Source: Trypanosoma brucei
Taxonomy: Eukaryota
Length of the DNA: 64,000 bases
NCBI GenBank assembly: GCA_000002445.1
Contig: CH464491.1
Coordinates: 1 to 64,000 of the forward strand
Direction: 5' to 3'
Part shown: positions 1 through 23,900 of the stretch, piece by piece
Layout of the letters: the number at the start of each line of letters is the position of its first letter
Position numbering within the stretch: the first letter of the stretch is position 1
Position numbers and translations under genes: made by a program
Notes under the pieces: model-generated
Database searches by the model: none
Seen by the model: the letters and a program-made list of their open reading frames with translations, nothing else
Told to the model about the DNA's origin: nothing

Positions 1-285
1 TACCCCTAACCCTAACCCTAACCCTAACCCTAACCCTAACCCTAACCCTAACCCTAACCCTAACCCTAACCCTAACCCTAACCCTAACCCTAACCCTAAC
101 CCTAACCCTAACCCTAACCCTAACCCTAACCCTAACCCTAACCCTAACCCTAACCCTAACCCTAACCCTAACCCTAACCCTAACCCTAACCCTAACCCTA
201 ACCCTAACCCTAACCCTAACCCTAACCCTAACCCTAACCCTAACCCTAACCCTAACCCTAACCCTAACCCTAACCCTAACCCGAA
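1..285. repeat. Telomere: tandem (CCCTAA)n on + strand, i.e. the TTAGGG G-strand is on the - strand running toward position 1; window position 1 is the chromosome terminus side
   Basis: About 47 perfect CCCTAA hexamers read directly from positions 3-282 before the unit changes to the 29-bp repeat. Confidence 0.97.
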
Positions 286-1578
286 CCCGCTAACCCGAAA
301 CACCCTAACCCGAACCCGCTAACCCGAAACACCCTAACCCGAACCCGCTAACCCGAAACACCCTAACCCGAACCCGCTAACCCGAAACACCCTAACCCGA
401 ACCCGCTAACCCGAAACACCCTAACCCGAACCCGCTAACCCGAAACACCCTAACCCGAACCCGCTAACCCGAAACACCCTAACCCGAACCCGCTAACCCG
501 AAACACCCTAACCCGAACCCGCTAACCCGAAACACCCTAACCCGAACCCGCTAACCCGAAACACCCTAACCCGAACCCGCTAACCCGAAACACCCTAACC
601 CGAACCCGCTAACCCGAAACACCCTAACCCGAACCCGCTAACCCGAAACACCCTAACCCGAACCCGCTAACCCGAAACACCCTAACCCGAACCCGCTAAC
701 CCGAAACACCCTAACCCGAACCCGCTAACCCGAAACACCCTAACCCGAACCCGCTAACCCGAAACACCCTAACCCGAACCCGCTAACCCGAAACACCCTA
801 ACCCGAACCCGCTAACCCGAAACACCCTAACCCGAACCCGCTAACCCGAAACACCCTAACCCGAACCCGCTAACCCGAAACACCCTAACCCGAACCCGCT
901 AACCCGAAACACCCTAACCCGAACCCGCTAACCCGAAACACCCTAACCCGAACCCGCTAACCCGAAACACCCTAACCCGAACCCGCTAACCCGAAACACC
1001 CTAACCCGAACCCGCTAACCCGAAACACCCTAACCCGAACCCGCTAACCCGAAACACCCTAACCCGAACCCGCTAACCCGAAACACCCTAACCCGAACCC
1101 GCTAACCCGAAACACCCTAACCCGAACCCGCTAACCCGAAACACCCTAACCCGAACCCGCTAACCCGAAACACCCTAACCCGAACCCGCTAACCCGAAAC
1201 ACCCTAACCCGAACCCGCTAACCCGAAACACCCTAACCCGAACCCGCTAACCCGAAACACCCTAACCCGAACCCGCTAACCCGAAACACCCTAACCCGAA
1301 CCCGCTAACCCGAAACACCCTAACCCGAACCCGCTAACCCGAAACACCCTAACCCGAACCCGCTAACCCGAAACACCCTAACCCGAACCCGCTAACCCGA
1401 AACACCCTAACCCGAACCCGCTAACCCGAAACACCCTAACCCGAACCCGCTAACCCGAAACACCCTAACCCGAACCCGCTAACCCGAAACACCCTAACCC
1501 GAACCCGCTAACCCGAAACACCCTAACCCGAACCCGCTAACCCGAAACACCCTAACCCGAACCCGCTAACCCGAAACA
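283..1578. repeat. Subtelomeric 29-bp repeat array (unit CCCTAACCCGAACCCGCTAACCCGAAACA, ~45 near-identical copies), a telomere-derived repeat of the kind adjacent to T. brucei telomeres
   Basis: The unit was read off directly and is essentially perfectly repeated from 283 to ~1578. The last unit ends ...cccgaaacaGCGAGCC. Confidence 0.9.
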
Positions 1579-2600
1579 GCGAGCCTTGAGTGTCGAACAA
1601 AAATAGCCGCAAAAAAAGACGCTGTCGGGCGATAGGAAAAAAAGCTGTTAAAAATTTTAACAATGGTGAAAAATGTGCAAAAAATCAAAGTCCAAAAAAA
1701 ATTTTTAAAAACTGGGAGGCGAAAAAAAAAAACAGTCAAAAATTCAAATTCGAAACAAGTAAAACAAGATTTTAAAAAAGCTAGACGCGAAAACCGATGT
1801 TAAAAATTAAAAATTAAAAAGTGGAGGTGCGTGCGCGTCGGGGGGCGGGGGGGAGGAGGGTTAGGGTCCGCATAACAAAATTGCCGCTGCATGGCTGAAA
1901 AAAAAATAACCAAAAACCAAAAAATTAAATAAAGATTAGGAAAAAAAAATTAAAAAAATTCAAAGGCCAAAAAAAAAAAATTAAAAAAAAGAGGTGCGTT
2001 TGCGGGGGGTGCGCGGGGGGCGGGGGGGAGGAGGGTTAGGGTCCGCATAATAAAATTGCTGCTGCATTGCTAAAATGAAAAAAATTAGCAATTTAAAAAA
2101 AATGTGAAAAAATTCGAAATGAAAAAAAAAAAATTGAACGTCAGGGCGAAAAAAAAGTGGAGGTGCTTGCGCTAAAAAAAAATAATAAATCGTGAAAAAA
2201 AACTGGAGGTGTCGCGGCGGCGCTGGGGGTGCGGGGGGGGAGGAGGGTTAGGGTCTGCATAACAAAACAGCCGCTGCACCGCTAATTTAAAAAAAAAAAT
2301 GTAAGCAAACAAACCGTCAAAAATTCAAATGCAAAAAAGTCTAAAAACAATGCGAAAAATTAAAAAACAGGTGCGGGGGGTGCGCGGGGGGCGGGGGGGG
2401 AGGAGGGTTAGGGTCCGCATAACAAAAGAGCCGCTGCATGGCTTTAAAAAAAAAAAACCACAAACCGCGCAAAAAACCGAAAACTAAAAAAAATGATTAG
2501 AAAAATGTATGAAAGAAAATCACATCGCAATAAAAAACAATAAAAGCAGCCGCTGCATCACTAAAAGACTAAAAAAACGAAAAAAAGAAAAGAGGAAAAT
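1579..2600. repeat. A-rich spacer containing 4 copies (plus one partial) of a ~75-nt G-rich element, core GGGGGGGAGGAGGGTTAGGGTCCGCATAACAAAA(N)GCCGCTGCA. Copies lie at ~1826-1896, 1993-2073, 2208-2285 and 2370-2445, with a partial at ~2548-2565
   Basis: The same GC-rich core, with embedded GGGTTAGGG, is seen four times at 160-215 bp spacing, separated by poly(A)-rich sequence. Confidence 0.6.
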
Positions 2601-2851: not shown

Positions 2852-2886
2852 GATGTTAAAATATATCAGAAGTTTTCAAGTAGCAA
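2852..2886 (-). promoter_or_regulatory. Conserved VSG 3'UTR elements: 16-mer (TGATATATTTTAACAT on - strand, one mismatch to TGATATATTTTAACAC) and the upstream 8/9-mer TTGCTACTT separated by GAAAACTTC
   Basis: The reverse complement of + 2852-2886 is TTGCTACTTGAAAACTTCTGATATATTTTAACATC. This matches, from memory, the conserved 3'UTR block of T. brucei VSG mRNAs, which is required for VSG mRNA stability. Confidence 0.85.
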
Positions 2887-2911: not shown

Positions 2912-4348
2912 TTAAAAAAGCAAAAATGCAAGCAAAAGAGGGGCTTTGTTAATGACAAAAGAATTGCTTGCTGTGGTGTTTGTAGTTCCAGGTTTCTCAT
3001 CTTTCCCTTCTGTTTCTTGGTTTGCTTTTTCTGCTGCTTTTTGTTTCCCTTCCTCACTCAATGTGCACTTTGGTTCTTCTTTTTTTGTTTCATCATATTT
3101 GCATTTTTTGTCAGCATTGCATGTTTTTGCATCTTTTATTTCGTTACATAGTTGCTCTGGGGTTTTATTTTTACCCTTGGATTCAGTGTCATCCAATCTT
3201 GTTTGTAGCTCTGTCAATCTCTTGCTCAGTTGCAATTGGTAGTGATACAGTATTGTAAGTAGCGTCTCTGTATCTTCTATTGCCCCCAATGTCGTTGGCT
3301 CAGCTTGTTTGCCTGTTTTGGCGGGTATCGGAAATTTCTCAATTTTTGCTATGAACTCTTTCCACTTTGCGTCGTCTTTTCCGCCAAAGTAAGAGGTCAC
3401 TTGTGCCTCTACATCTGCGTCGGCTGCCTCTGCTTTTTTAAGGTTGACTGTTCTGATCGCTTCGCTGACTAAGTTGTAATTTTTGATTTCGCCAGTAGTG
3501 TTGGTGAAGGCTGGATCCTCTGCTTGCGGTGGGAGCTTGTTTTTCGACCATGCGTTGTACCACGCCGGGTGCGTATTGGCGTGCTCTTGGGTCATTGTTT
3601 GTACGCTGTTTATGCTCAGCGCGTTGGCGCTGTTTGGAATTGTTAGGTAGCCGTCTAGCACCTTGAAGTTTGCTGCCAGCGCTGAGCCGTCTCCTAGGCC
3701 ATTGTTTGTGTGGCCGCTGGCAAGTGTGCACTTCCCGCTTGAGTGCTGTTCGTCGTCTCCGGATATCCTATGCGCCAGCTGGGGAAAGCCGTTGGCAGTT
3801 ATATGGGTTGGTTGTATGCCGCTGCTGCTTGCCCCTGTTAGTTTCAGTTTGCATTCCGTGCCGCCAAGCCTGTTTTGAGTTATGGTCGCCGCCGCTGACC
3901 CGGCATTTGTTAGCAGGCAGCCGTCGCTGCCGCCTTGGTTTACGTTAGACCATAACGATAAGTATTCATCTACATGCCCTTTGAGGTACGTTGCCGCGCT
4001 TGCGGTTTCGATGGCTGCTTGTATTGACGTTGTCCTTAGTTTAGAAAGGGAGGCCTGCACCTTGCTGCTGTAGTAAAGTTCTGCTAAAGCCGTTGGCGTT
4101 GCTTCTTTTGTTCCTGCCATCGCTAAGCCATAAATTTGTGCCCTCAGGGTGGCGCGCTGCATGAGTTCGACTTGGCTCGTTGCCGATTGTAGGTCTGAAA
4201 TTGCTTTGTGCGGTTTGCTATCCAGCTCTTCGGAGAGTCCACAAAGCGGTTTCCAGAAAGCTGGAAGCATCCCCTTTTGCGCCGTCGCGTCTACGGCCGC
4301 TAGTTGCTGCATTATTAAAAGCGCAACAGCAAACAAATAGTTGATCAT
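2912..4348 (-). CDS. VSG: Variant surface glycoprotein (VSG), 478 aa. N-terminal signal peptide (MINYLFAVALLIMQQLAAVDA), A-type N-terminal domain with 4 Cys, and a single 4-Cys C-terminal subdomain (CNEIKDAKTCNADKKCKYDETKKEEPKC). The 17-residue GPI signal NSFVINKAPLLLAFLLF follows a Ser omega site, which is class/type 2. A candidate spliced-leader acceptor AG lies at ~4435/4436 (- strand), preceded by a pyrimidine-rich tract at ~4459-4495
   Basis: Intact ORF. The canonical 3'UTR 16-mer and 8-mer lie immediately downstream. The GPI signal is almost identical to the type-2 VSG tail SNSFVI(H/N)KAPL(F/L)LAFLLF. It is transcribed toward the telomere. Confidence 0.9.
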   Translation of the reverse strand: MINYLFAVALLIMQQLAAVDATAQKGMLPAFWKPLCGLSEELDSKPHKAISDLQSATSQVELMQRATLRAQIYGLAMAGTKEATPTALAELYYSSKVQASLSKLRTTSIQAAIETASAATYLKGHVDEYLSLWSNVNQGGSDGCLLTNAGSAAATITQNRLGGTECKLKLTGASSSGIQPTHITANGFPQLAHRISGDDEQHSSGKCTLASGHTNNGLGDGSALAANFKVLDGYLTIPNSANALSINSVQTMTQEHANTHPAWYNAWSKNKLPPQAEDPAFTNTTGEIKNYNLVSEAIRTVNLKKAEAADADVEAQVTSYFGGKDDAKWKEFIAKIEKFPIPAKTGKQAEPTTLGAIEDTETLLTILYHYQLQLSKRLTELQTRLDDTESKGKNKTPEQLCNEIKDAKTCNADKKCKYDETKKEEPKCTLSEEGKQKAAEKANQETEGKDEKPGTTNTTASNSFVINKAPLLLAFLLF

Positions 4349-6119
4349 TGCTTGATTACCTTCGCCGGTGCTTGAAATTTACGAAGAGTGTCAAATCATG
4401 ATGTTGCAAGGATTGAACGGACATTTTTTTTAGCCTGCATCTCGCCGGTATGTTAGTTGTGTGAACAAAAGAAGAGAGCTGTAGAGCAGTAGCACCGTTT
4501 TTACTCTGTTTGTACACTGGCTTCTTACCAGGTTGAGTTGCTCGTAATCCATGTGCTGCTTAGCGCCTCTGCGATAGCCGTTGTAACTTCCATTACTTAT
4601 CCTGAAAACAATCTCTGCCTCATTTTCCCCTTCACCTATATGCTCTTCTAATGTTAAATACTTAGAATACCCCATAGGCGTGCCATAGCGCTTGTCAAAA
4701 GCGCACACCTTCTCGGAATCGACAGCCTTCCACCATTATGTTTCTCAAAATCAGTTCGGTTGCTAACTAAGGTCGTTGTCTTATTCAACGTTGTTGAAAA
4801 TTTAGTTACTTTGCCCGCCGTGCAATTTTTGTCGTTAGCGCATTCGGTTGTCGTCCTGGGTTGGTGTTGCTTGTGGTGGCGCCGTTTGTCACCGTAGAGC
4901 CACCTACAGAAAAAGAAACAAAAGGAGAAAAGTTAGAAATATAGAAGCTTCTGCGTTCTTTTCTGTTAAATGAAATTTAGAACAGACTTTTCCTTTCTTT
5001 CTCCTGGATTAAGTAAAAGACACTCAGGTATGGCATAGAACTTTCACTTTAAAAGGTAATTTGTATCATTTTATATTTATGCCATCTAGAGTATCAATAA
5101 TTTCTACACTTCACTCTCTTCTACCATAATTCAAGATGCCTGTGCATTTTTCACTCGCCAAAATCATGTAACGCTGCCACTTTCTCGAATAAAATTGATC
5201 TTCTGTTTCTTATTGTTAATCATTTTGTTTCGGTGTAAGGCGCTTCGCAATAATACTATGTAATGTATGGCCCCAAAATTCTACCCTTGCTGTTTTTGTT
5301 CTGCTAATACTGGACGCTAGCTCTCCATTCGCTATCTTTATTATGAAAACTACTCAATTATTAAATAAAATAATCTCTGGAAAACCCCTAGTAGGGAATT
5401 TAAGGCGTGTCACCATTGTTCCTTTCCTTTTTATAGCATTAGTGCGTAGGTTGATACATGTGCTATTTCAAGCAGGTTCAACGTCTTTGTTCCTCTTTTT
5501 CTGTAAATAATAATCCATTAGCAATCCCAGGTATTAAATCCGCGTAGCGACCATATTATATAGAAGCTATCAAGTGTTAGTCATTATTACTATATCTGAT
5601 TAAAAGATATTTTGACATTACCTCACACTTAGCCAATTCTTTCTTGTTGTTACTGCTTCTCACATATACATATTAAGATCTACAATCAGATTGAAAACAT
5701 CATTGTACACCATCTCTACAGCAGAATATATCCATTTCTGCTGGGGATAGGGCGTATTGTGTCATCCTTCTATATTATCTTTTCTATACGACGCTGTCAT
5801 ACATAGAGGTTTCATTCCATTTTTAATTGCTTTTTTTACCGTCTACTGTCATTTTTTGCAAATAAAGTAGCGGTCCTATTTAGGCTGTACACTGGATTTT
5901 CTCTCTCCATCATTTTCTTTTCTATCACTTCCTTGTGTGTAATAATTCCCATATTCTATTTACATCTCTTTATATATGTCTATTTGTGTTTCATTTAATA
6001 CTATTTCTCGTGCTCTCCTTCATACTGTCCCACACACATATTCCCATCGCACACTTTCCAATTTTAAAGTGCCCCTACTGTTTCCGATCGTTCAGTCTTC
6101 AACAACACTCTTAACATAA

Positions 6120-6562
6120 TATTAGTATGTACACACTCATAATACTCTCCTATTATTATTATTATTATTACTGCTCTTATTATAATATTCGTATATACAC
6201 ACACTCACAACACTCTCCTATTATTATCATTATTATTATCATTATTATTATTATCATTATTATTATTACTGCTCTCATTATAATATTCGTATATACACAC
6301 ACTCACAACACTCTCCTATTATCATTACTATCATCATTATTATTACTACTCTTATTATAATATTCGTATATATACACTCACAACACGCTCCTATTATTAT
6401 TATTATTATTATCATTATTATTACTGCTCTTATTATAATACTGGTGTATACACACTCACAACACTCTACTATTATTATCATTATTATTAGTATAATTATT
6501 ACTGCTCTTATTATAATATTCGTATATACACACTCACAACACTTTCCTATCATCATTATTAC

Positions 6563-6595
<33 letters not shown>

Positions 6596-6670
6596 TGCTC
6601 TTATTATAATATTCGTATACTCACACTCACAATACACTCCTATTATCATTATTATCATTATTATTATTAT
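6120..6670 (-). repeat. 70-bp repeat array: about 7 imperfect units of 70-95 bp, each a (TAA)n/(TTA)n triplet run followed by GAGTGTTGTGAGTGTGTGTATATACGAATATTATAATAAGAGCAGTAAT on the - strand
   Basis: The unit recurs at ~6127, 6195, 6290, 6365, 6445, 6520 and 6600. Its orientation matches that of the VSG, as in expression sites and silent VSG cassettes. Confidence 0.85.
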
Positions 6671-7994
6671 TTTAGAACACCCGTGTCAAGGGCATATAAA
6701 ATAGCTATGAAAATATCTTTTCTAAAAACGTTATTGATTATTTGGATGAATAAGCAAAATGGCACGTATTCTAACGCCTTTTGTATGATTGTTGTGGAGA
6801 ATAACCCTGTATGGAAAAGAAACAAGTGCACATATGAAACCTTCCGCCAATATTAACTCTCTGATCTTGCGTCACACTCCTCTTCAATTCTCTCCAGTTT
6901 TAGCGAATATTTGCATTTTGTGTGAACCCACACTCATCATAAATGTTATATGTCGCTTTGGAATTTCCTGCTGTTAAACTTCGTCAGTAGTGCGTCCACA
7001 TTTTTTACTTTTGCACAGAAAAACCGATGCGAGTATACCATCAACTTTTAAATAGTTTTTAAAAAAAACTGTGATTATGGTTTCAAAATCGTTGGAGAAC
7101 TTTTATGATTCTTAAGTCATGGGTGCCGAAAAACATGAGAAATGAAAGTCAACCTTCTCTTTCTTTTTAGTAAAAAAAAACTAGCCTTTTTCATTTCCCT
7201 AATGTGCTTCCGCGATCCACAATCTGCTCAAGAAACTTCTGAGGTCATCACCAGTATTTCTCTATCATCCTCTGTAAGGTTAGTTGCAAATTAAAAGCCC
7301 CTCGACTTCAAATCTTACAGCAAACTTTCCTCCATTCTAAGGTCTTTACTGCGTGTGAGTTCGAGCACAGAGTCTTGCTAAACACTTAATTTCTTGTAGC
7401 TATTTTTTGGGTTTGACAAGTCTTCTCGCCATGTTAAGTCCGTATGTCTCTCTTTTTCACATCTGCTCCATCAATCTTGAAATGATTCGTCAGCTAAACT
7501 GCTGCTACAATGACTTTCTATGGATTTATAAAAAAAATTGCACTATTTGCGGTGCGAACCGTACCGGACCCAATGCCCAGCATCAACATTGATAAGAAGG
7601 TTATCTAATTCTTTCTCAGAAGTATTAAAAGTTTAGCATCCAACCACTTTTTTTTTACCATTTATATCCGTTGCGCACTGTTAATTCTACCACAAAAACG
7701 GTAGAAAGCAATACAGAACTTCAGCAATTCGTCAGTAGCAGACCGATGATGTAGCCATTACCGAAAGCGCAATTAGTTGTATAAAAGGTAATTAGAGCCA
7801 CCGTTGTCACTACCAGAACCCCCGCTGTTGCCCCTCGACCATGTTTTCGCAGTTGTTCACGCATTCAGCATTACTTACCCCAAACAAATGAGAAACATTC
7901 CGTGATATTCGTCTGTCGGTGCTTGCGTTCCGATCAGTAGCCGCCGCAGGTGTTACATTTTCACTATCTTCCGTGGGTTGCGGCATCATGAACA

Positions 7995-8420
7995 CCCTGG
8001 CGATGCCGGCCACCTCAACGTGGTGCCAGAGTCCAGTACCCCGTATAATCGGGGGAAGCCAAGAGCCAGCAGCGTTCCTTTCATGGGGAACACTGCTTTG
8101 CTCCGGCTACGGCATCATACAGCACAGGGATCAGCAGCGTCTTGCTGGGACATCTTTGTTCATTTTCGGTGCCTGGGCACGTGCCAGCGTGCCATCAGCA
8201 GTATCATCCGCACTAAGATGCTGCTGTCCGGTGATGTGGAAGAGAATCCCGGCCCGTCGTTGCGCGGGATGCAGTGGAACTGCGCCGGGCTATCTCAAGA
8301 AAAGAGATTAGCATCTTGGACACCGGAGAGATGTATTTGCGGTGGCCAAGATGCTAATCCAAAGGATAATGGAGACTCTGCTTTGCGTTTGGACCGACGT
8401 CAACTTTTTTGTATTTGAAA
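7995..8420 (+). mobile_element. ingi: 5'-terminal fragment of an ingi-type non-LTR retrotransposon. The Pr77 hallmark 5' end is CCCTGGCGATGCCGGCCACCTCAACGTGGTGCCAGAGTCCAGTACCCCGTATAATCGGGGGAAGCCAAGAGCCAGCAGCG. Reading continues past the RIME breakpoint into an in-frame 2A-like peptide, DVEENPGP, at ~8236-8262. The 3' limit is uncertain
   Basis: Near-identical in inverted orientation to 10265-10512. The Pr77 and 2A-like motifs are characteristic of trypanosome ingi/L1Tc elements. Confidence 0.7.
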
Positions 8421-10009
8421 TAGTCAGTAGTATGATTTTTACCTTATCCCTCGCTTCTTGGTATAACTCTCGTTTTTGCGTCAAGAATCTCCCCTTAAGC
8501 ACATTTGGTTGGGTAATGGGGTTCTTCCGGCGAAGTACGCAAGTTGGGTTCTAACATGGGTAAACTTGGAAAGTAGGATTTGTGCCGACAACTCTTCACG
8601 GCGCGCATTGGTTTGATTCCCTCAGGAAGCCTATCTTCACCTGATCTTCCTCATTTCAGCGGCTCCAGAAATTGCCACTTTACAAAAACGAGGCAAGAAC
8701 GGCCAAGCAGTATTTTTGGATTAGGCTTGGGATCAGCTCAGGCCATTTCCGGGCAAATGACAGACCACATATCTCCGATCTTTTATAGGCTTATGGCGAA
8801 AGAGGAATGTAGAATTGTTGTCGTAACCAAAAATGCTACGGTAAAAATGCCGCTTCCAACCACCCCGCAGGCAATGGGGACAGCGACAGATAAAACCACC
8901 CGATTTGTTACACTACAAGAAGCGTGATAAATGCAACCGGTAACATACGTGTGTGGCTGCATGTTTGAAGTGAAATGGGTGGCGCCCAACTCTCTGGTGA
9001 GCAGTGGCTTCAACAGGCATCTTTTTCATAGTGCCATTTTGTGTGCCAGAACAGGTCCGAATGTACGTGAACGCACTCTGTTTTTTATCTTGCGGTTGGT
9101 AATGCGCAGTCCATTAGCCCTGAAACTGCCTCCTGCAAATAAGTTCACCATTGAAGAGGGCGTGGGCGCCAGAAGGGCCCCGTGGACGAAAGGAAAGGTG
9201 GAAATCGCTAACAAAATACTGTACCCCGCGGCTGCGGACTTGAAACCACCGGTAAAAACAGTTGCATTCACAGACCATACCTTCGTACATTGACAAAATG
9301 ACTTGTTAAGCGACCGGGCCAGGTCAGTTCGGTTGACGGACAACCTGTAGGTCCGACACTTGGAGCTAACGGAAAACGCGTCACTCACATTTTTTTTTTT
9401 TTAAAAGGCACCTGTATAACAGATATTCGAAAATCAGCCTTAAAGTTTTATGAAGGACAAACATCTTTAAACAAAAGATGCTGAAGAGCGCGATGGACGT
9501 CACTGCACGCCACCCCTTAGAGGCCAATTGCTGTCTTTTGTTAATTTTTAGTTTGGGGAATTTGAAGAAACGGAGGGAAAGCACTGAATTTCACTTCACG
9601 AGTATCCGCCATTATGAATATAATGAACACACCCCTTCTCCGAGAGTTCGCGTTGGACAACGAAACATAGGAAAAGGAAATTCCAAAAAAAAAAAGGACC
9701 ACTATATGCAAAATAAAAATGAATATTTTAACGAAACTGGAAACTATTTTATACTGCCTCGGAATGGCAAATTTTTTGCTTTCTCGGGAGGGTAGGTTTA
9801 TATTTTCCGCGAGGGTAATCGGTTTTTTTTACGTGTTAAAACAAGACCATATTTTTGACTGCCGTTGGAACTAGTTTTTGTGTCGATGTAGAACTAAGAA
9901 TAGGCTAATAGAAAGGAAACATGTCTTTCATACCGCAGTCTCTGTACTTTCTTGTGTGTCCCACAAAAGAATTTCTAAAATTTTGGCACTACTACGGAAT
10001 CGAGGTAAA

Positions 10010-10512
10010 TTATTTTTTTTAATTTTCTTCGTGCCTTCGTGAGAGTTTCCCCCCACTGGCGCGGCCATCAGCCATCACCGTAGAGCCCTGAGATGCTATC
10101 GGTCTGGCAACTGTGGCAGAGTCTCCCTTTTTCATTCATCCTAACACACTCTCTATATTTTTTGTTGTAGCTCCGCAGATGAACGGAATACAGCAGATGG
10201 GGCGAGAAACCTCCCACCCTGGACTCTCCCGAAGATGCCAATCGGCAATCCTTTTTTTTGGAGTTCCACATCACCGGACAGCAGCATCTTAGTGCGGATG
10301 ATACTGCTGATGGCACGCTAGCCACGTGCCCAGGGACCGACAAATGAAGAACGGTGTCCCAGCAAGACGCTGCTGATCCCTGTGCTGTATGATGCCGTAG
10401 CCGGAGCACAGCAGTGTTCCCCATGACAGGAGCGCTGCTGGCTCTTGGCTTCCCGCGATGATACGAGGCTCTGGACCCTGGCACCACGTTGAGGTGGCCG
10501 GCATCGCCAGGG
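10010..10512 (-). mobile_element. RIME: RIME (about 500 bp). About 248 bp of the ingi 5' end (Pr77) is joined at ...CCGGTGATGTGGAA| to about 240 bp of the ingi 3' end, ending in a short poly(A) (poly-T on the + strand at ~10024-10031)
   Basis: The 5' half aligns to the + copy at 7995-8250 and then diverges exactly where the RIME breakpoint is expected. The total length is ~500 bp. No unambiguous target-site duplication could be read. Confidence 0.75.
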
Positions 10513-13315
10513 AAAACGCTTGTAACCTTTCCGCTTCATTCAAATCTAAAGTGTATCGAACTAAAGCGGACACTCAATCAACAAGAATCACGTACCATTT
10601 ACCTCCTTTCCACTAAAAAGAATTTGTACACGGCGGCGCCTCTTCCAAGGTAGCTTTCTCGGTGTTCCCTCAGTAGTGTTTAACTGCATGAAAGTGTTAT
10701 ATCCCTCAGATTCCCCTGACAGGCCAACCAGTCTACTTTCCTTCCACGCGGTCTTCCAAAATTTCGAAAGGCGCTGATTCAACTTTCATTCTTGGCTTGC
10801 TGTCGTTTGGCCGTGACGCTTCCCCATCGGCGATGAAAGTCTAGTTCAACCAACCTCTCTATGCAAAACATGTGGTAGACGCGTGCACAAACCAGCACCA
10901 AGCAGCCAACTCTTTGTTTTTTTTACACCTCTAACCTACACACACCGTGCACTGTGACAACTCTGAGGCACAACTGCCACAGTCGATGTGATTACACGGA
11001 TGAATCTCTGCCGCCGTTTCTTCACCCGAGTGATTGCAACTCTTACACTAGGAAAGTTCACTGCCGATATTCAGACGTCATTCACATAAAACAAATCACA
11101 GAGTAATAATATTTTAGGTACAAGAAAATTCACCTAAATGCACGTGTCCTAGCACAAGACGGTACACTAATAGCACAAAGTGACACTCATTCCCTCACTA
11201 TTCAGAAAAGAGGTCGACGAAACGCCACACCAATAGTCTGTACGGGCATTTTCCCACACACTACACGACTACAATGCCTCTTCGCGGTGTATGCTACCCA
11301 CTATCCTTCACCCTTCCACACCTACAGTGGCTGCAAAATATCAGTTCATACCAGTCACACTACTTGTTCCTCGTTTTTAATCTTTTACGCAGCTGCTTCA
11401 CCACAAAAATTTAGGCACTATTGATCCCAATGCGGTTCTGCGTGGGGATAAATACATTTGCTTCTCTGCCACTAGATACGCGCTTATTAAGCGGCAGAAA
11501 TTATGGAGCGACTACACACGCAGAATATGAAAGCGAGACGAGATAGTTGTTTGCGCGAAGCATATACAAAAGCGTACTTCACATGATAAAGAGCACCGAG
11601 GTTGAATATTACAGAAGGAAAGTATGAAACGCGTGGAATTGAAGTTCTACCCTCTCATTGAGGGCAGGGGACCCATTAGCTCGACGTTTATGGCCTTTAC
11701 TTTCTCCAAACAAAATTGACAACCACAACCTTTCCCCCACTTACCTCCTGCCGCCGGCTTCTGTATTTTAATCACGCTGATGGCGTGCTCAGAAGTTGCT
11801 ACTGTTCCCTTTTATCTAAGTGTCAGAAATGTAAAGTGGCATATGTGCTTAGGCGTCATCGGCAGCTTTTGTTGGAAATAGTTCTTGTTTCCACCCAATG
11901 CATTTTGCATCTAATCTCCACTTTTAACTTTTATGCCCTTGTTTCCAGTATTGTACAAATGCAAACGGTCACATGCTTCCCCACCACGTCCCTGTACACT
12001 CGAGCTGTTTCGATCAATTGAATCGAACTCTTAGCGGTGGCAATGTCACTTTCGTGGGTTACTGAACTTATTTATATGGTTTTGACCAGCCTCATCGTCA
12101 TACATTCCTGATCCCCATAGGAAGGAGCAACATGATACTTAGCCGCTAGATTACCTTTCCTGGAGACCCCAAAAACAGGTGTTAAAAACTCGCCAGAAGA
12201 GGTACACTTACCCTTCATATTCACTTCATTAGCAGAGTTGCAAAGCACTACGACATTACATGATGAAAACGGTAAACGGTAAAATGCTCAAAGTTGAATA
12301 TTTACAATTAAGCAAAAGGAGATAATATCAGCCTTCAGCTCCACGACATCAGCATACGTCTGCGAGATTTTGTTCATCGTGAAGTTAACGTATAGAACAA
12401 AGAGGTTTAGCAGTTTATTTATCAGCATCTTCTAGTGAAACTATTATTACGATTGAGTTAATCGCTTGAAAAATTCGAACTTTGATACTTTTCGAAGAAA
12501 GAGTGCTCAATAACTTAATTAAATGTGCCGTGGCGACAAAGACGCAAAAAAAAAAACATTCGCAAGAATTTCCCTTCAAATAAGTTATGTTTCTTAATAA
12601 ACACAGTATCTGTGAGGCATCTTTATTATCATCAATTTCCCTTCCACATCTGACCCTTTCGTGATTTATTCTTCCTTGGTTAAAGCCGTTCACATATCTC
12701 CACTTTTTGTAACTCACCCATTCATCGAACATTCCTTTTCACTTCATTTTGCACTTTGTTTGTTCGCATTGGTTAAACATATTTTAAGGCAACAGAGATG
12801 ATTTCACACTTGCTGGTCGGAACACTCATTCTCTTCCCCGCATCTTAAACTGCCGATTCCGTTAAATCAACTTGTGGATGCTCACTGCTGCGTTTTAATC
12901 GGCACTTATTACATCTCTTTCAAAAATAAAAAATATAAAAATAACTCACTGGTTACGGTTTCTTAACATGTAACAAGGTTAAGGGGGGCTCCTCATTCAT
13001 TACCTATTTTTTGATATCCTTTACTTCTTCTCATGTATTACGTCATTTTCAATTTTGGTATTCTTCGTCCACACAATCAATAACCTCAATTTCTTTTTCT
13101 CTCTTCAAATAATCCCTTATTTATAGCAAGCTCGTTATTTCTGGCTTGTAGTTATTCGATTATCTTATCAAATGTCGCTACAACGCTCCATTCATACACT
13201 TTTCGGTGAAAGCAGTTGCACATTGGTCACTGATTCTCATTCTTGCTTCCACTTCCAGTGGTGTCCACCTTATTGGACATTTTCCAAGCCGTAAACGGGT
13301 TTACAACAATGCCTT

Positions 13316-14235
13316 TTAGGAGCAAAGGAAGCATAGTGCAGTGGAAAGCACCACTGTATGACTTTTGTGCGCAGCACTTCTCCCCCATTTTACACTGCTT
13401 TCTGCGGACTCCTGCCCATCCAAATTGCCTGTGCCCACCTCCCGTGCATTTTCCCTGTCAGGCCCCGATGTTAAGCTGCTCAGTTGCGGCCGCGTCACGT
13501 GGCTGTTATCATGGTGTGTTATTTGCAGTCCTGAAATATCTTCTCCGTTTTCGGTCGGTTGTCCCCCTAAAGTTCCCACTCCTTGTGTATCTTTTTGCCC
13601 AGGTCCCGGTGCTGCATCCGCTGGCGGTGGCTGCGCCACACTCCAGCTATCGTGTCCTGGCACTTGCGTCCCTGAAATTGTATTTCCTCCTTTTCCAAGT
13701 TCTCCGCTTTGGCCTTCCGAAGCTCCCGGTTCCTGTCCTCTTTGAACCACTTTCTGCTCACTGCCTTCACCCGCTGGGGACGTCGCGGCGGCAGTACTTG
13801 GGAGATTTCAGATGTGTGCGCGATGTGATCGTTTCTTGCGCTTCCAACTACTCTATCTTGTGGTTTTACGCCCACTTTAGGAAAGTCTTCTTTAGAGCCT
13901 GAAATCGATTGACTAGCCCCCTCCGCAGCCGAACCCGGTGTAGTACTCTTTTGTGTTCCTAGCTTCCCGGTGTCTTCGGACGTCGCACTTGCTGGATGGC
14001 TGTTACGAGATAAGGGAGAAGTAGGCTGTCTTCCCGCACTGCTTGGACCGACAGCGCTTTCACTTTGCGAAGAACAGTGGTGGTTATTTGAGCGGTCCCA
14101 GTATCCGTCGCACTTGCTGTTTTCGGTTGTTAATTGTATTGAAGCTTCCGGTTCAGCAAATAAAACAAGCAATAACAGCGTCAAAAATGGAACTGTTGCA
14201 AGTCCGAGCATCGTTTTCTTAAGAGGTTCAGACAA
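13316..14235 (-). pseudogene. Frameshifted member of a two-gene family of low-complexity predicted secreted/GPI-anchored proteins. The N-terminal 222-aa frame is 13567..14235: a signal-peptide-like MLGLATVPFLTLLLLVLFAEPEAS, then ...CDGYWDRSNNHHC..., then a Ser/Thr/Pro-rich region. The C-terminal hydrophobic tail (...HKSHTVVLSTALCFLCS) lies in a different frame, 13316..13750
   Basis: The two overlapping minus-strand ORFs together mirror the single intact paralog at 20125-20964, so a frameshift or sequencing error splits this copy. Confidence 0.5.
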
Positions 14236-20124: not shown

Positions 20125-20964
20125 TTAGTAACTCAGGAGGCATAACGCTGCAGAAAGTATCATTGTATTCCTTGTATGTGCAACGCTTCTTCTCCCTTGT
20201 GTACTGTTTTCCGTCGAATCATGTTCCTCCAGATCGCTTGTAGCCGCTTCCTGTTTACCTCCCTGATCAGGCTCCGAGACTGCGCTCCTCGGTTGTGGAT
20301 GCGCTAGACCCTCACCACTTTCCCTTGTTAGCGGTGGTGGTGTGGTGTTCCTTCCCTGCCTCTGCCCTTCATGACTTTCACTTCCACGATCTCGTTTTTC
20401 ACCTTCAGACACTTCGTTTGCTCGCACGGTTGCCTGTCTGCTTTCTTCTACCTCTGTGGTTGCTGGCTCCTCACGCAAAGACAGGCCAACTGGTCCGTCG
20501 CTCCGCTCGACCTGCCCATCAATTCCAGTGGCACTCGCGGCGTCACTTTGTGGCTGACCCTCTTGAGGGGCACCCAAAGAACCAGACCGTGTTCCGCTGG
20601 AAATGCTTAAAGCTGGAGATGGCACCTGCCTTCCTCCATGCTGGGCGCCGGTTGCGCTGCCACGTACTTCTCGTCTTTCCGTTTGCGGCTGCAGAACAGG
20701 GAGTTGGGGAGACGCATCTCCACTAGGCCGATCCTGACGTGAAGGCAGCAATGAACACGGCACCCCTTTGCCGTCACGGTCCCAATATTGAATGCATCCG
20801 CTTCCGGACGAAACCGCTACCCCCACTACACTCGTTGTCGCGGAAGCGCTTCGCGACTCAGCTGGCAGGAGACACGTTATAAGTGTCAGCAACAGCACTG
20901 TTGTATTTTTGAACATAGTGTCACTTAGCTTGTTAACGCACAAAATTACACAAAACACTAACAA
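20125..20964 (-). CDS. Paralog of 13316-14235. A predicted secreted Ser/Gly/Pro/Glu/Gln-rich protein. Its probable start is the Met at ~20916 (MFKNTTVLLLTLITCLLPAESRS signal peptide). It carries the conserved motif C-IQ-YWDRDGKGVPC and a C-terminal hydrophobic GPI-signal-like tail (...NTMILSAALCLLSY). The family is unidentified. An ESAG9-like relationship is a guess only
   Basis: It shares its N-terminal signal, the CxxYWDR(x3-5)C motif, the low-complexity middle and the C-terminal hydrophobic tail with the upstream copy. Confidence 0.5.
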   Translation of the reverse strand: MLVFCVILCVNKLSDTMFKNTTVLLLTLITCLLPAESRSASATTSVVGVAVSSGSGCIQYWDRDGKGVPCSLLPSRQDRPSGDASPQLPVLQPQTERREVRGSATGAQHGGRQVPSPALSISSGTRSGSLGAPQEGQPQSDAASATGIDGQVERSDGPVGLSLREEPATTEVEESRQATVRANEVSEGEKRDRGSESHEGQRQGRNTTPPPLTRESGEGLAHPQPRSAVSEPDQGGKQEAATSDLEEHDSTENSTQGRRSVAHTRNTMILSAALCLLSY

Positions 20965-23900
20965 ACAGGGGCCTCCAATAGATATATACCAATTCGATTA
21001 AGTATTTATTTGTGAAGAATAATCTGATTATGATAGATATCCTTTTCTTATCACTTTGTGGATGCTGGTCACTGCTGGTCACACATGCTCGGTACTTTCT
21101 CCATTTTATTTTCACAATTGAGTTTTTCTGGTTATTTTAATTTTAACCTCAATAAAAGTAACTCAGTAAAATAAGATGATGATCGTAATACGAAATGTGT
21201 TCCACCATTCGTATAATTATTATTATTCATTATCTATTATTTATTATTATTTCTCTTTAAACAAAGATAAACATCTAACACAACAATGACACCAACAACG
21301 CAAAACGCCCCCACAAGTCGTCGATAACCTATATAAATCGAAATGAAGTACAGATATAGAGCTCCAATTACGCAAAACAAAACCTTCCCCCCTTTCCTCA
21401 TTATTTCTAAAATTCAGATGAATTAAGTGAAAGGAAACAGTCACAAAACTAACTCTTATCTCCAAATGATAATAAAAACAGAGGTAAATTCAAATTTGGG
21501 TTTTTGATATACAGAACCCTATTACGTGAAACAATTAGTCACACGTATGACGGACAAAAGGTAACAACGAAACACCCCACCAAACCAGTTGCTTTAAAAC
21601 GCAAAAAATACAACTCGGCAGGTAGGTCGTGTGAGTTGTATTTTTTGCGTTTTCTTTTTGTTTTAATCCTGTAAATAACGTTATTGCTTCCTCATATTTA
21701 CATAGTTTCATCATGCAGTACTCCAAAACTATAAACGGCACACACTTAAGCACCTTCACTTTTAAGCCACCTCGTTTTGTTAATACAAAAGAAACGGTTA
21801 GTTTAAAGGCGGCAAATTATCGGTACCGAATATACTGCGCCCTAGGGGTAAACGCCTTAACTGCTACACGGCAAAAGCAGGAAATGTCAGGAAAGGAAAT
21901 TTAAAAAAAACGGTTTTGCAGTCCTGTTCAACAGTAGACCAGTTCACAGAAAGGGGGAAATTAAAAAATTACATTAAGTTAAAAATTATTCTTACCTCCT
22001 TTGTTCTTTCTTACGCAATATCATTAGGGGAAAATAAATGATCTTTTTGTTTTGAGGCGATAAGGTTTGACCAATGATTTCGTAAGCTCCGATTAACCTT
22101 CCCAGCCAACACGCTCGAATCTACAGTCCTCTGGGCTTCGAATTTAAAAAAATGCCTTACCTCTATGCACACGTTCCCATCAACCACGACCGACCCTAGA
22201 CGAGACAGCTGCTCGTACAGAGTTCACGACGAAATACCCAAACGGGTTCGATCTCGTGATACACCCTTTTACAAAACCGAGGTGTAATTCGCTTTATCAA
22301 ACACTTTAAAGGCAATGACCGCAGAGAATTTAATGTACTTCCTACAAATGACGCCAAATTTAACCCCGAACTTAAATGGCAGCATCAAACTAATTAGATC
22401 CCAATTCATAATATTCAGTAATAAAACTTTTAACAAACTCACGAACACAACCGCTATTCACTACGAGGTTTCTTTGATTGTTATCGCCAAAATCTTCAAT
22501 GATTCTTAACGTTTTAAAATGGGACTTCAACCGATTAAACTCCCATATAAGAACTGAATTGTTAAAACGGAAACTGCATAATCATAACAACCGCAGTTAC
22601 ACCAATCCACGGTAATGAGAACCTCATGCACCCTTCATTTCTTGAAGCTCAACAACCAGTACCCACACTTGGTACACACCACCTTAACTTTTTTAAAAAA
22701 CATCCATATGGTATATAACGAATCATTCTGCGTATTTACACAATTCATCAGAATCGGGACTCTTGTTATCATGCAATACGTTATAACGATAACCCCATTC
22801 TTCGTTATCAACATAACAAGAAATCTCAAACAAATTTTGGACAGCCTTTTTACAAGACAAAATTCAGAGGCAGCTGCGACACGATAAAGAGAAACATTTA
22901 GATAATTATAGAAAATGTCGTCACTGAAAAACTCAGCAATGCGCAAGATAACAGTATGCAACTAGCACACCTAACCTTTGGTAAAATACACAAAACCACT
23001 CTGCAACATTCACCGAACATCGAATAAGAAGGAATTCAAGTTTATCAACTCTTCGTTCAAAGCTGTTCTACCTCATCCATCTTGCTACAGATTACTCTGT
23101 TAGACAAAAACGCTCAGAGTTTTCACAAAAAGTTTTCCTCTGACCTTGCATAATCCAACATCCATTTTTCAGCACCATTGTCATACCTTTTTTGTGGCCC
23201 GGTTACATTCACCTATAACAGAATCACTTTATTCCCTTGTCACTTCATACAAGCACTTAAAGAAGCCTTCAAACAAAATTTTAATATCCTCCGCTGCGAC
23301 CGATTGATTACCGGTGTAATCTACCCACTCATCACTCATATTTTATGCTTGAAATTCACGCTACCATCAAACGACTAAGGCTTATTTCACGAACAAAAGC
23401 ACAACTGCCAAAGAGCATAGGAATGACGTCATGAACATGAATACAGTAGGTTCTGGCTCTTTCATGTCCGCAATATTGCCACCAATCACCCACATTTAGG
23501 TTAAACATGTCAATGACAAAATAATCGAAATTGCTTACAAAATTGTGGGTCCCATCACTCACACTTCTTTGGGACGCCACTAAAGCAAAAATCTTAGTTC
23601 AAACAATTTGAACCAGAAACCTCCCACAACAACATGTCACTGACTAATAGACACGTAAAAAACACATAAGAAAAAGAGAAATAATCCATAGTTATATCGA
23701 CACGCAACGCAAAAATCAATATGTTTCCAGCCTGAACACGGGAAAACTCTACAATAATTTCCCCTTCCCTTTACAAAAGTTAACCAATGTAAAGAAAAAT
23801 ATTTATAAATACTCCTGGTTAAAGGCACAATAATAATATATGTATGCACGAATATACAACAACATGATTTCCTTACGGCACTGCCTGCCCTATTCCCACC

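What the first reader, a model, noticed from the sequence alone, without database searches (positions are those of the whole stretch)
4349..7994. Unique 3.6-kb stretch between the VSG and ingi that should hold any local promoter and the spliced-leader acceptor
A monocistronic VSG promoter, if present, must lie between the VSG ATG (4348) and the retroelement block (7995). This stretch has a 1.8 kb unique segment (4349-6119, analogous to a co-transposed region). It has the short 70-bp array. It has 1.3 kb of further unique sequence (6671-7994). A pyrimidine-rich tract on the minus strand at ~4459-4495 is followed by an AG at ~4435/4436. That would give an ~85-nt 5'UTR.
Basis: inference. Interest (0 to 1): 0.55.

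Follow-up and report, generated by a model that had tools for sequence, protein, structure and literature searches.

The report
Non-coding leader of a telomeric VSG site
The 3.6-kb stretch is the ordinary non-coding DNA upstream of a telomeric trypanosome coat-protein (VSG) gene, and the only promoter-like element I could find lies about 470 bases beyond its far end, past a retroelement fragment.

Summary
The window is the left end of Trypanosoma brucei TREU927 chromosome 11. The described anatomy is real. An intact A-type VSG lies at 2912-4348(-). It is preceded by 1.8 kb of unique DNA, six to seven 70-bp repeats (6108-6675), 1.3 kb of unique DNA, and an ingi 5' end at 7995. A 16-nt pyrimidine tract (4478-4463) is followed by AGs at 4442/4441 and 4436/4435.

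The 1.8-kb segment behaves as a co-transposed region. A T. equiperdum telomere carries it at 86-95% identity, next to 70-bp repeats and a VSG only 76% identical.

Inside 4349-7994, matches to the published BES and MES-653 promoter-core sequences are at chance level. The single good match in the whole window is at 8506-8520(-), on the VSG-sense strand, about 4.1 kb upstream of the ATG and beyond a 310-nt ingi remnant. It matches 15/19 to the MES-653 core, and AGGGGAG follows 10 nt downstream.

The most likely reading (about 0.6) is a metacyclic-type monocistronic expression site whose transcribed leader is this stretch. I could not obtain the full MES consensus, and no expression data exist here. 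This is an ordinary feature of a known kind.

The parts
1..288 (.). Telomere hexamer tract (CCCTAA on the + strand): the chromosome end
   Evidence: TRF, 47.5 copies, 99% matches
273..1578 (.). Array of 29-bp telomere-derived repeats, 45 identical copies
   Evidence: TRF
2853..2868 (-). VSG 3'UTR 16-mer, TGATATATTTTAACAT (15/16 match)
   Evidence: Only match in the window at up to 2 mismatches
2912..4348 (-). Intact A-type VSG gene, 478 aa, read towards the telomere
   Evidence: 100% identical to TREU927 EAN78994.1
4435..4442 (-). Two candidate trans-splice acceptor AGs: 4442/4441 (92-nt UTR) and 4436/4435 (86-nt UTR)
   Evidence: Only the 4436/4435 AG is conserved in T. equiperdum L002. Use of either site is inferred, not shown
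4463..4478 (-). Proximal polypyrimidine tract CTCTCTTCTTTTGTTC
   Evidence: conserved in L002
4904..4932 (-). Stronger 25-nt polypyrimidine tract plus AG (4905/4904), 555 nt upstream of the ATG: a possible alternative acceptor
4349..6107 (-). Co-transposed, non-coding part of the VSG cassette
   Evidence: T. equiperdum L002 matches 6168-5173 at 95% and 5020-3159 at 86%, contiguous with 70-bp repeats and a telomere; no Pfam hits
6108..6675 (-). Short 70-bp repeat array: six units plus one degenerate, in VSG-sense orientation
6676..7994 (-). 1.3-kb unique non-coding spacer with no promoter-core match
7995..8305 (+). Truncated ingi 5' fragment, antisense to the VSG. It keeps the 2A-like DVEENPGP and the start of the endonuclease ORF
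   Evidence: The ~8305 end is my reading of the ORF and of the palindrome that starts at 8306
8306..8359 (.). 54-nt imperfect palindrome at the break in the ingi fragment
   Evidence: Self-match 8306-8359 against 8359-8306, 81%
8460..8525 (-). Candidate two-box Pol I (MES-type) promoter. Box 1 is CCCCATTACCCAACCA at 8521-8506 and AAGGGGAG lies at 8496-8489. The inferred start is near 8460
   Evidence: The box-2 comparison and the start position rest on a BES sequence recalled from memory
10264..10512 (-). Second ingi 5' fragment, inverted relative to the first
   Evidence: the T. equiperdum syntenic contig L003 ends inside it
13316..14235 (-). ESAG9-like, apparently frameshifted gene upstream of the candidate promoter
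   Evidence: 86% identical to T. equiperdum TEOVI_000013800, which UniRef names ESAG9

Best explanation
The locus is a metacyclic-type (monocistronic, ESAG-free) telomeric VSG expression site at the left end of TREU927 chromosome 11. The 3.6-kb stretch is its non-coding, presumably transcribed leader, not the seat of the promoter.

Proposed mechanism:
1. RNA polymerase I, recruited by the factor CITFA, starts near 8460 on the minus strand. The promoter would be a two-box element, CCCCATTACCCAACCA followed 10 nt later by AAGGGGAG.
2. Transcription runs antisense through a 310-nt ingi remnant and then the 1.3-kb spacer.
3. It continues through the six to seven 70-bp repeats. These are the upstream entry point for VSG gene conversion.
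4. It then crosses the 1.8-kb co-transposed region.
5. The VSG mRNA is cut out by trans-splicing at an AG just downstream of the 4478-4463 pyrimidine tract, and by polyadenylation after the 16-mer.

Shown: the anatomy, the cassette behaviour of 4349-6168, the lack of coding content, the lack of promoter-core matches inside the interval, and the single box-1 match outside it.

Inferred: promoter activity, the start site, which AG is used, and metacyclic-stage expression.
For: - Telomeric, intact VSG with a canonical 3'UTR element, read towards the telomere.
- No protein-family match between 4349 and 10340 among the longest stop-to-stop frames tested (seven in all). No tandem array of any kind, such as a 50-bp repeat array, in 7-64 kb. 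The best match to the BES core 20-mer anywhere in the window has 5 mismatches. This is not a bloodstream expression site.
- The positions shared by the two published cores (BES ATATCCCTATTACCACACCA and MES-653 CCTATAACCCGACCAAATA, PMC8034637 Table S3) give the pattern CCTATWACCNNACCA. Its only site at up to 1 mismatch on either strand is 8506-8520(-); 0.17 are expected per window.
- That site matches 15/19 to the MES-653 core. The null mean is 0.21 hits per window on both strands. That is about 0.01 for the sense strand within 6 kb of the ATG.
- AGGGGAG occurs only three times in the window, and one copy lies 10 nt downstream of box 1. This matches the order and spacing (off by 1 nt) of the BES promoter as I recall it. 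The first 20 nt of that recollection proved exact when compared with the published primer.
- CITFA needs both elements of the 67-bp BES promoter (PMC3950698), and the same factor is reported to recognise MES promoters (PMC8034637).
- In Lister 427, chromosome 5' ends including Chr11_5A carry MES VSGs within a few kb of contig starts. Eight VSGs lie less than 4 kb from a putative MES promoter and one lies 8.9 kb away (PMC8034637).
- An ESAG9-like gene lies upstream of the candidate promoter. This matches the published criterion that in genuine MES any ESAGs lie upstream of the promoter (PMC8863249).
Against: - The full MES consensus (Ginger 2002, Kolev 2017, Cross 2014) was not obtainable. The test therefore rests on two short published primers plus an unverified recollection.
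- Generic local alignment to the BES promoter is not significant: 13 of 30 shuffles reach the window maximum. A softer scoring ranks the site first by only one point.
- The match to the box-1 pattern departs at one conserved position (CCC for CCT).
- At 4.1 kb the promoter would be further from the VSG than the usual 1-2 kb. The one 427 VSG with a promoter 8.9 kb away did not respond to TbSAP knockdown.
- Primers flanking the MES-653 promoter have no counterpart in the window.
- Six to seven 70-bp units is more than the "MES lack 70-bp repeats" view allows (PMC10089363).
- There are no expression, ChIP or start-site data. Comparative data stop short: the T. equiperdum contigs break at the ingi and at the 70-bp repeats.
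Confidence: 0.6

Rival explanations
1. This is a promoterless, silent telomeric VSG cassette, like minichromosomal VSGs. It would serve only as a donor or recipient for gene conversion through its 70-bp repeats. The box-1-like site at 8506-8520 would be either chance or a dead relic.
For: - The 70-bp array plus conserved co-transposed region is the standard transposable cassette.
- The box-1 match alone is expected 0.17-0.21 times per window.
- Whole-promoter similarity is not significant.
- An ingi remnant and a palindrome lie immediately downstream of the site, which indicates rearrangement.
Against: - The match lies on the correct strand, within about 4 kb upstream, and has a correctly spaced G-rich second box.
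- In the Lister 427 supplement I read, the ESAG-free VSGs at the starts of megabase-chromosome 5' contigs are the ones listed as MES.
- The VSG is intact with a canonical UTR.
Confidence: 0.22
2. The promoter does lie inside 4349-7994. It would be of a divergent type that the two available core sequences cannot detect.
For: - MES promoters are usually 1-2 kb from the VSG.
- MES promoters are described as divergent from BES promoters and from each other.
- Only two short probes were available to me.
Against: - The best sense-strand matches in the interval are at the level of shuffled sequence.
- No site matches the box-1 pattern at up to 3 mismatches on the minus strand in the interval.
- Known MES promoters are similar enough to be found with one HMM (PMC8863249).
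Confidence: 0.08
3. The VSG is reached only by RNA polymerase II read-through from the upstream telomere-directed polycistron.
For: Every ORF of at least 200 aa from 20 kb onwards is on the same strand as the VSG, as is the ESAG9-like gene at 13.3-14.2 kb. Read-through is therefore topologically possible.
Against: About 12 kb of gene-poor, retroelement-containing DNA separates the last clear gene from the VSG. Established knowledge is that VSG transcription is by Pol I, and that Pol II units terminate before subtelomeres; I could not test this here.
Confidence: 0.1

Closest known systems
Metacyclic VSG expression sites (ILTat 1.22/1.61/1.63/1.64; Lister 427 mVSG-397/531/639/653/1954 and others)
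   Same: - A telomeric VSG is the only gene downstream of the candidate promoter, with no ESAGs in between.
- The site lies at a megabase-chromosome end next to housekeeping genes.
- ESAG-like and retroelement DNA lies upstream.
- The box-1 sequence matches the MES-653 core 15/19.
   Different: - The promoter would be about 4.1 kb from the VSG rather than 1-2 kb.
- An ingi remnant sits between the promoter and the 70-bp repeats.
- There are six to seven 70-bp units.
- The flanks of the MES-653 promoter are not shared.
- Metacyclic expression is untested.
Bloodstream VSG expression sites (BES)
   Same: - The order promoter, 70-bp repeats, co-transposed region, VSG, telomere is the same.
- The two-box architecture is recognised by the same factor, CITFA.
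- Retroelements are tolerated inside the unit, for example the ingi in BES2.
   Different: - There are no ESAG7/6 or other ESAGs downstream of the promoter.
- There is no 50-bp repeat array.
- The BES core 20-mer has 5 mismatches at its best site.
- The unit would be 4 kb long rather than 30-60 kb.
Co-transposed region upstream of VSG221 and generic VSG cassettes
   Same: Unique non-coding DNA lies between the 70-bp repeats and the VSG. It travels with the 70-bp boundary and is conserved across strains more strongly than the VSG: 95% against 86% DNA identity and 76% protein identity.
   Different: There is no sequence relationship to the VSG221 region that I could test. Its role in expression-site stability is untested.
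Minichromosomal or other promoterless telomeric VSGs
   Same: A telomeric VSG preceded by 70-bp repeats, with no ESAGs.
   Different: - This one is on a megabase chromosome, contiguous with core genes.
- A promoter-core-like element lies upstream.
- No tandem array such as 177-bp repeats is present.

Membership tests
Metacyclic VSG expression site (MES) | Telomere-adjacent VSG transcribed towards the chromosome end | tested here: met
   VSG at 2912-4348(-); telomere repeats at 1-288
Metacyclic VSG expression site (MES) | Monocistronic: no ESAG or other gene between the promoter and the VSG | tested here: met
   No Pfam hit among the seven longest stop-to-stop frames tested from 4349-7994 and 8300-10340; no RNA genes
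Metacyclic VSG expression site (MES) | MES-type Pol I promoter a few kb upstream of the VSG | tested here: inconclusive
   A single box-1 match at 8506-8520(-), 15/19 to the MES-653 core, with AGGGGAG 10 nt downstream. The full consensus or HMM was not available, and generic alignment is not significant
Metacyclic VSG expression site (MES) | Few or no 70-bp repeats | tested here: inconclusive
   Six to seven units over 568 bp. This is short compared with BES arrays but more than the 0-2 usually quoted (the 0-2 figure is from memory)
Metacyclic VSG expression site (MES) | Transcribed by Pol I specifically in metacyclic forms | not testable with these tools
   No expression or ChIP data are reachable. 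This VSG is not among the EATRO1125 mVSG cDNAs searched
Bloodstream VSG expression site (BES) | Conserved 67-bp BES promoter | tested here: not met
   No match at up to 3 mismatches to TCCCTATTACCACACCA. The best match to the 20-mer has 5 mismatches
Bloodstream VSG expression site (BES) | ESAG7/6 and other ESAGs between the promoter and the VSG; 50-bp repeats upstream | tested here: not met
   No coding matches downstream of the candidate promoter; no tandem arrays in 7-64 kb
VSG cassette with co-transposed region | 70-bp repeat upstream boundary, with unique DNA that moves together with the VSG | tested here: met
   T. equiperdum L002: 70-bp repeats, then a 95% match to 6168-5173, an 86% match to 5020-3159, then a telomere
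Trans-splice acceptor of a VSG mRNA | Polypyrimidine tract followed by an AG within about 100 nt of the ATG; actual spliced-leader addition | tested here: inconclusive
   The tract at 4478-4463 and the AGs at 4442/41 and 4436/35 are present and partly conserved. Actual use needs spliced-leader RNA-seq

The most novel reading that the evidence does not exclude
This would be a metacyclic expression site of intermediate design. Its Pol I promoter has been pushed to about 4 kb by a retroelement remnant, yet it keeps a working 70-bp array and a conserved co-transposed region. Its VSG could then be replaced by ordinary 70-bp-mediated gene conversion. T. equiperdum carries the same upstream cassette with a VSG only 76% identical. 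That would offer a concrete route for turnover of the metacyclic VSG repertoire, which is often assumed to be shielded from such exchange.
Probability: 0.3. Interest if true: 0.4.

Novelty: new member of a known kind. Interest (0 to 1): 0.25.

Why it matters
If the element at 8460-8525 is a working promoter, the reference strain TREU927 has a fully assembled metacyclic expression site, running from the telomere into the core genes. That would be convenient for studying how these sites are silenced and activated, and whether 70-bp repeats allow their VSGs to be exchanged. For genome scanning, the practical lesson is that a retroelement fragment is not a transcription-unit boundary, so promoter searches upstream of telomeric VSGs should extend past it. 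Otherwise the stretch is ordinary VSG-cassette DNA.

Tried and rejected
Literature:
- I tried to read Ginger 2002, Kolev 2017, Günzl 2015, Christiano 2017, Kolev 2012 and Becker 2004. None is held.
- Full-text searches for promoter sequence strings returned no trypanosome paper. A search for the VSG's accession numbers returned nothing.
- Several papers give no promoter sequence. The supplement of PMC8034637 was the only source of real core sequences.

Fetching a BES promoter:
- My recalled ESAG6 sequence was validated against PDB 6SOY.
- I then searched for ESAG7 homologues. None sits on an indexed contig, and the TREU927 copy is not on record.

Fetching the orthologous promoter region:
- Exact look-ups of window proteins and ORFs mostly failed.
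- The T. equiperdum syntenic contig L003 ends in the inverted ingi, and L002 starts in the 70-bp repeats. The 6.2-10.3-kb interval was therefore never captured.

Rejected readings:
- A CCCTAT at about 5750(-) was an early candidate. It has 7/19 mismatches to the MES core, which is chance level.
- A gapped BES-like match at 23887-23910(+) is on the wrong strand, needs three gaps and has no second box.
- rDNA promoter primers gave no match within 5 mismatches.
- Procyclin promoter cores could not be tested because no sequence was available.
- The ORF at 4430-4708(-) and the other frames in the stretch have no family match.
Full report
WHAT THE WINDOW IS

The sequence starts with CCCTAA repeats (1-288), followed by 45 identical 29-bp telomere-derived repeats (273-1578). 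The ORF at 2912-4348 on the minus strand encodes a 478-aa protein with a full A-type VSG N-terminal domain (Pfam PF00913, E=3.6e-106). It ends in a GPI-signal C-terminus, SNSFVINKAPLLLAFLLF. The protein is 100% identical to the TREU927 protein EAN78994.1/XP_828106.1, carried on a 5.26-Mb record. The window is therefore the left end of T. brucei TREU927 chromosome 11.

The VSG 3'UTR carries the 16-mer as TGATATATTTTAACAT at 2853-2868(-). From 20 kb inward, all ORFs of at least 200 aa lie on the same strand as the VSG. They include two tandem receptor adenylate cyclases, an ETF subunit and a BipA-type GTPase. A polycistron therefore points at the telomere.

CHECKING THE OBSERVATION

Each structural statement holds.
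- The 70-bp array is at 6108-6675. Six units carry the core TATACGAATATTATAATRAGAG on the minus strand, and there is one degenerate unit. Two units match the longer canonical core, which I recalled from memory, with 1-2 mismatches. The array is thus in VSG-sense orientation.
- The ingi 5' end sits at 7995(+). A second, inverted copy lies at 10512-10264, 93.6% identical over 249 nt.
- The first fragment continues into the 2A-like DVEENPGP and the first residues of the ingi ORF. It breaks off near 8305 at a 54-nt palindrome.
- The stretch 4349-7994 has no other copy in the window apart from its own 70-bp units.
- No stop-to-stop frame in it hits any Pfam family, even at E≤1. It holds no Rfam family and no tRNA.

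The pyrimidine tract on the VSG-sense strand is narrower than described. It is CTCTCTTCTTTTGTTC at 4478-4463. The first AG after it is at 4442/4441, giving a 92-nt UTR. Only five tracts of at least 12 nt occur on that strand between 8530 and the ATG. One of them is much stronger: 25 nt at 4932-4908, with an AG at 4905/4904, 555 nt upstream of the ATG.

WHAT THE 1.8-KB SEGMENT IS

A 6.2-kb telomeric contig of T. equiperdum OVI (L002) was reached through a VSG that is 76% identical at the protein level.
- It starts inside 70-bp repeats.
- It then matches window 6168-5173 at 95% and 5020-3159 at 86%.
- It continues into the same kind of subtelomeric repeats.

The DNA between the 70-bp repeats and the VSG is therefore better conserved than the VSG itself. 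That is the behaviour of a co-transposed region in a VSG cassette.

In the alignment of the last 760 nt, the proximal pyrimidine tract is conserved, and so is the AG at 4436/4435. The AG at 4442/4441 is not conserved. The final roughly 70 nt before the ATG are almost invariant.

An 86-92-nt UTR is unremarkable. Published VSG UTRs span 15-91 nt, with short pyrimidine tracts averaging 11.5 nt (PMC5070307). My count on the EATRO1125 mVSG cDNAs gives about 31-155 nt (PMC8483307 S5). Which AG is used cannot be decided from sequence.

THE PROMOTER QUESTION

The papers that hold the MES consensus were not available. The supplement of the TbSAP paper (PMC8034637, Table S3) gives qPCR primers that sit in the promoter cores:
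- BES: ATATCCCTATTACCACACCA
- MES-653: CCTATAACCCGACCAAATA

The two overlap, and their shared positions give the pattern CCTATWACCNNACCA.

Orientation is fixed by three points:
- Both amplicons cover the core only if CCCTAT/CCTAT is on the sense strand.
- This agrees with my recollection that the non-coding strand of this box is the one bound by a telomere-repeat-binding protein (Vanhamme 1995 and Berberof 2000, from memory).
- It also agrees with my recollection of the BES sequence.

Inside 4349-7994 the best sense-strand matches have 8/20 and 7/19 mismatches. Shuffles of the interval give means of 7.6 and 6.9. No site meets the shared pattern at up to 3 mismatches on the minus strand.

Across the whole 64 kb, on both strands, exactly one site meets the pattern at up to 1 mismatch. 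It is 8506-8520 on the minus strand (0.17 expected).
- It is also the best match to the MES-653 primer, at 15/19. The null mean is 0.21 per window. That is roughly 0.01 for the sense strand within 6 kb upstream of the ATG.
- Read 5' to 3' on the VSG-sense strand, the region is AGAACCCCATTACCCAACCAAATGTGCTTAAGGGGAGATTCTTGACGC.
- AGGGGAG occurs only three times in the window, and one copy lies 10 nt after box 1.
- In the BES promoter as I remember it (…CCCTATTACCACACCAGTTTATATTACAGGGGAGG…), the same G-rich box follows at a spacing 1 nt longer.

That continuation is from memory and unverified, although its first 20 nt proved exact when compared with the published primer.

CITFA binding needs both elements of the 67-bp BES promoter (PMC3950698). 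The same factor is reported to recognise MES promoters (PMC8034637). By analogy, the start site would lie near 8460.

CAVEATS

- A generic local alignment of the remembered 54-nt BES promoter against the window is not significant: 13 of 30 shuffles reach the window maximum.
- With a softer scoring the candidate ranks first by only one point.
- The case therefore rests on position-specific agreement with two short published sequences, on strand and location, and on an unverified second box.
- Primers flanking the MES-653 promoter find nothing in the window, so this is not the same site as 427 Chr11_5A.
- At about 4.1 kb, the distance to the ATG exceeds the usual 1-2 kb. It is just beyond the under-4-kb range of eight Lister 427 sites. 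A ninth site, at 8.9 kb, did not respond to TbSAP loss.

CONTEXT THAT FITS A METACYCLIC-TYPE SITE

- There are no ESAGs, no BES core and no 50-bp repeats.
- An ESAG9-like, apparently frameshifted gene lies at 13316-14235(-), upstream of the candidate promoter. Genuine MES have been recognised by having any ESAGs upstream of the promoter (PMC8863249).
- In Lister 427, chromosome 5' ends including Chr11_5A carry MES VSGs within a few kb of the contig start.
- Retroelements occur inside expression sites, for example in BES2 (PMC2567434). The ingi fragment at 7995 is therefore no boundary.

COMPARATIVE DEAD END

The T. equiperdum contig syntenic with window 24195-13661 (94% identity) and 11468-10337 (92%) stops inside the inverted ingi. 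L002 starts in the 70-bp repeats. The interval that holds the candidate promoter was never captured.

VERDICT

The co-transposed-region analogy and the proximal splice acceptor are reasonable. The assumption that the promoter must lie inside the stretch is not supported.

The best-supported reading (about 0.6) is a metacyclic-type monocistronic VSG expression site. Its promoter would sit at about 8460-8525(-), and the flagged 3.6 kb would be its non-coding leader.

The rivals are:
- a promoterless cassette, with the match being chance or a relic (about 0.22);
- Pol II read-through only (about 0.1);
- an undetected divergent promoter inside the interval (about 0.08).

Either way this is a known kind of locus in a reference genome. 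Interest is low to moderate.

Noticed in passing
window 273-1578: Forty-five perfectly identical copies of a 29-bp repeat (ACCCTAACCCGAACCCGCTAACCCGAAAC) lie directly inside the CCCTAA tract. The perfect identity suggests either very recent homogenisation or an assembly collapse.
   Followed up: no
window 1809-2463 and 2601-2716: Four units, spaced 160-212 nt apart, of A-rich DNA each include GGGGGGAGGAGGGTTAGGGTCCGCATAACAAAA…GCCGCTGCA. A block of degenerate interstitial telomere repeats lies about 200 nt 3' of the VSG stop.
   Followed up: no
window 4904-4932 (-): A 25-nt polypyrimidine tract plus AG lies 555 nt upstream of the VSG ATG. It is stronger than the proximal tract and is conserved in T. 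equiperdum. It could be an alternative spliced-leader acceptor, as reported for some mVSG loci.
   Followed up: partly
window 7995-8359 and 10264-10512: Two ingi 5' fragments lie in inverted orientation, 93.6% identical, and bracket about 2 kb of unique DNA that contains the candidate promoter. The first fragment ends at a 54-nt palindrome, which suggests a rearrangement scar.
   Followed up: partly
window 13316-14235 (-) and 20125-20916 (-): The first is an ESAG9-like gene that appears frameshifted; it is 86% identical to T. equiperdum TEOVI_000013800. The second is an ORF with a signal peptide and a hydrophobic C-terminus, with no family match. Both lie between the core genes and the VSG site.
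   Followed up: partly
L003 (T. equiperdum CZPT02000199) against window 11468-13661: The T. equiperdum syntenic contig lacks about 2.2 kb that TREU927 has. It is only 92-94% identical to the window here, which seems lower than I would expect for core regions of these taxa (not measured here).
   Followed up: no
window 25133-28840 and 31849-35583 (-): A tandem duplication of a receptor-type adenylate cyclase (GRESAG4-like), with a 6.72-kb period and 98-99% identity.
   Followed up: no
window 23887-23910 (+): CCCTATTCCCACCGTTGATATTA resembles the first half of the BES promoter, but only with three gaps. It is on the strand pointing away from the telomere and has no G-rich second box. I judged it to be chance.
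   Followed up: partly
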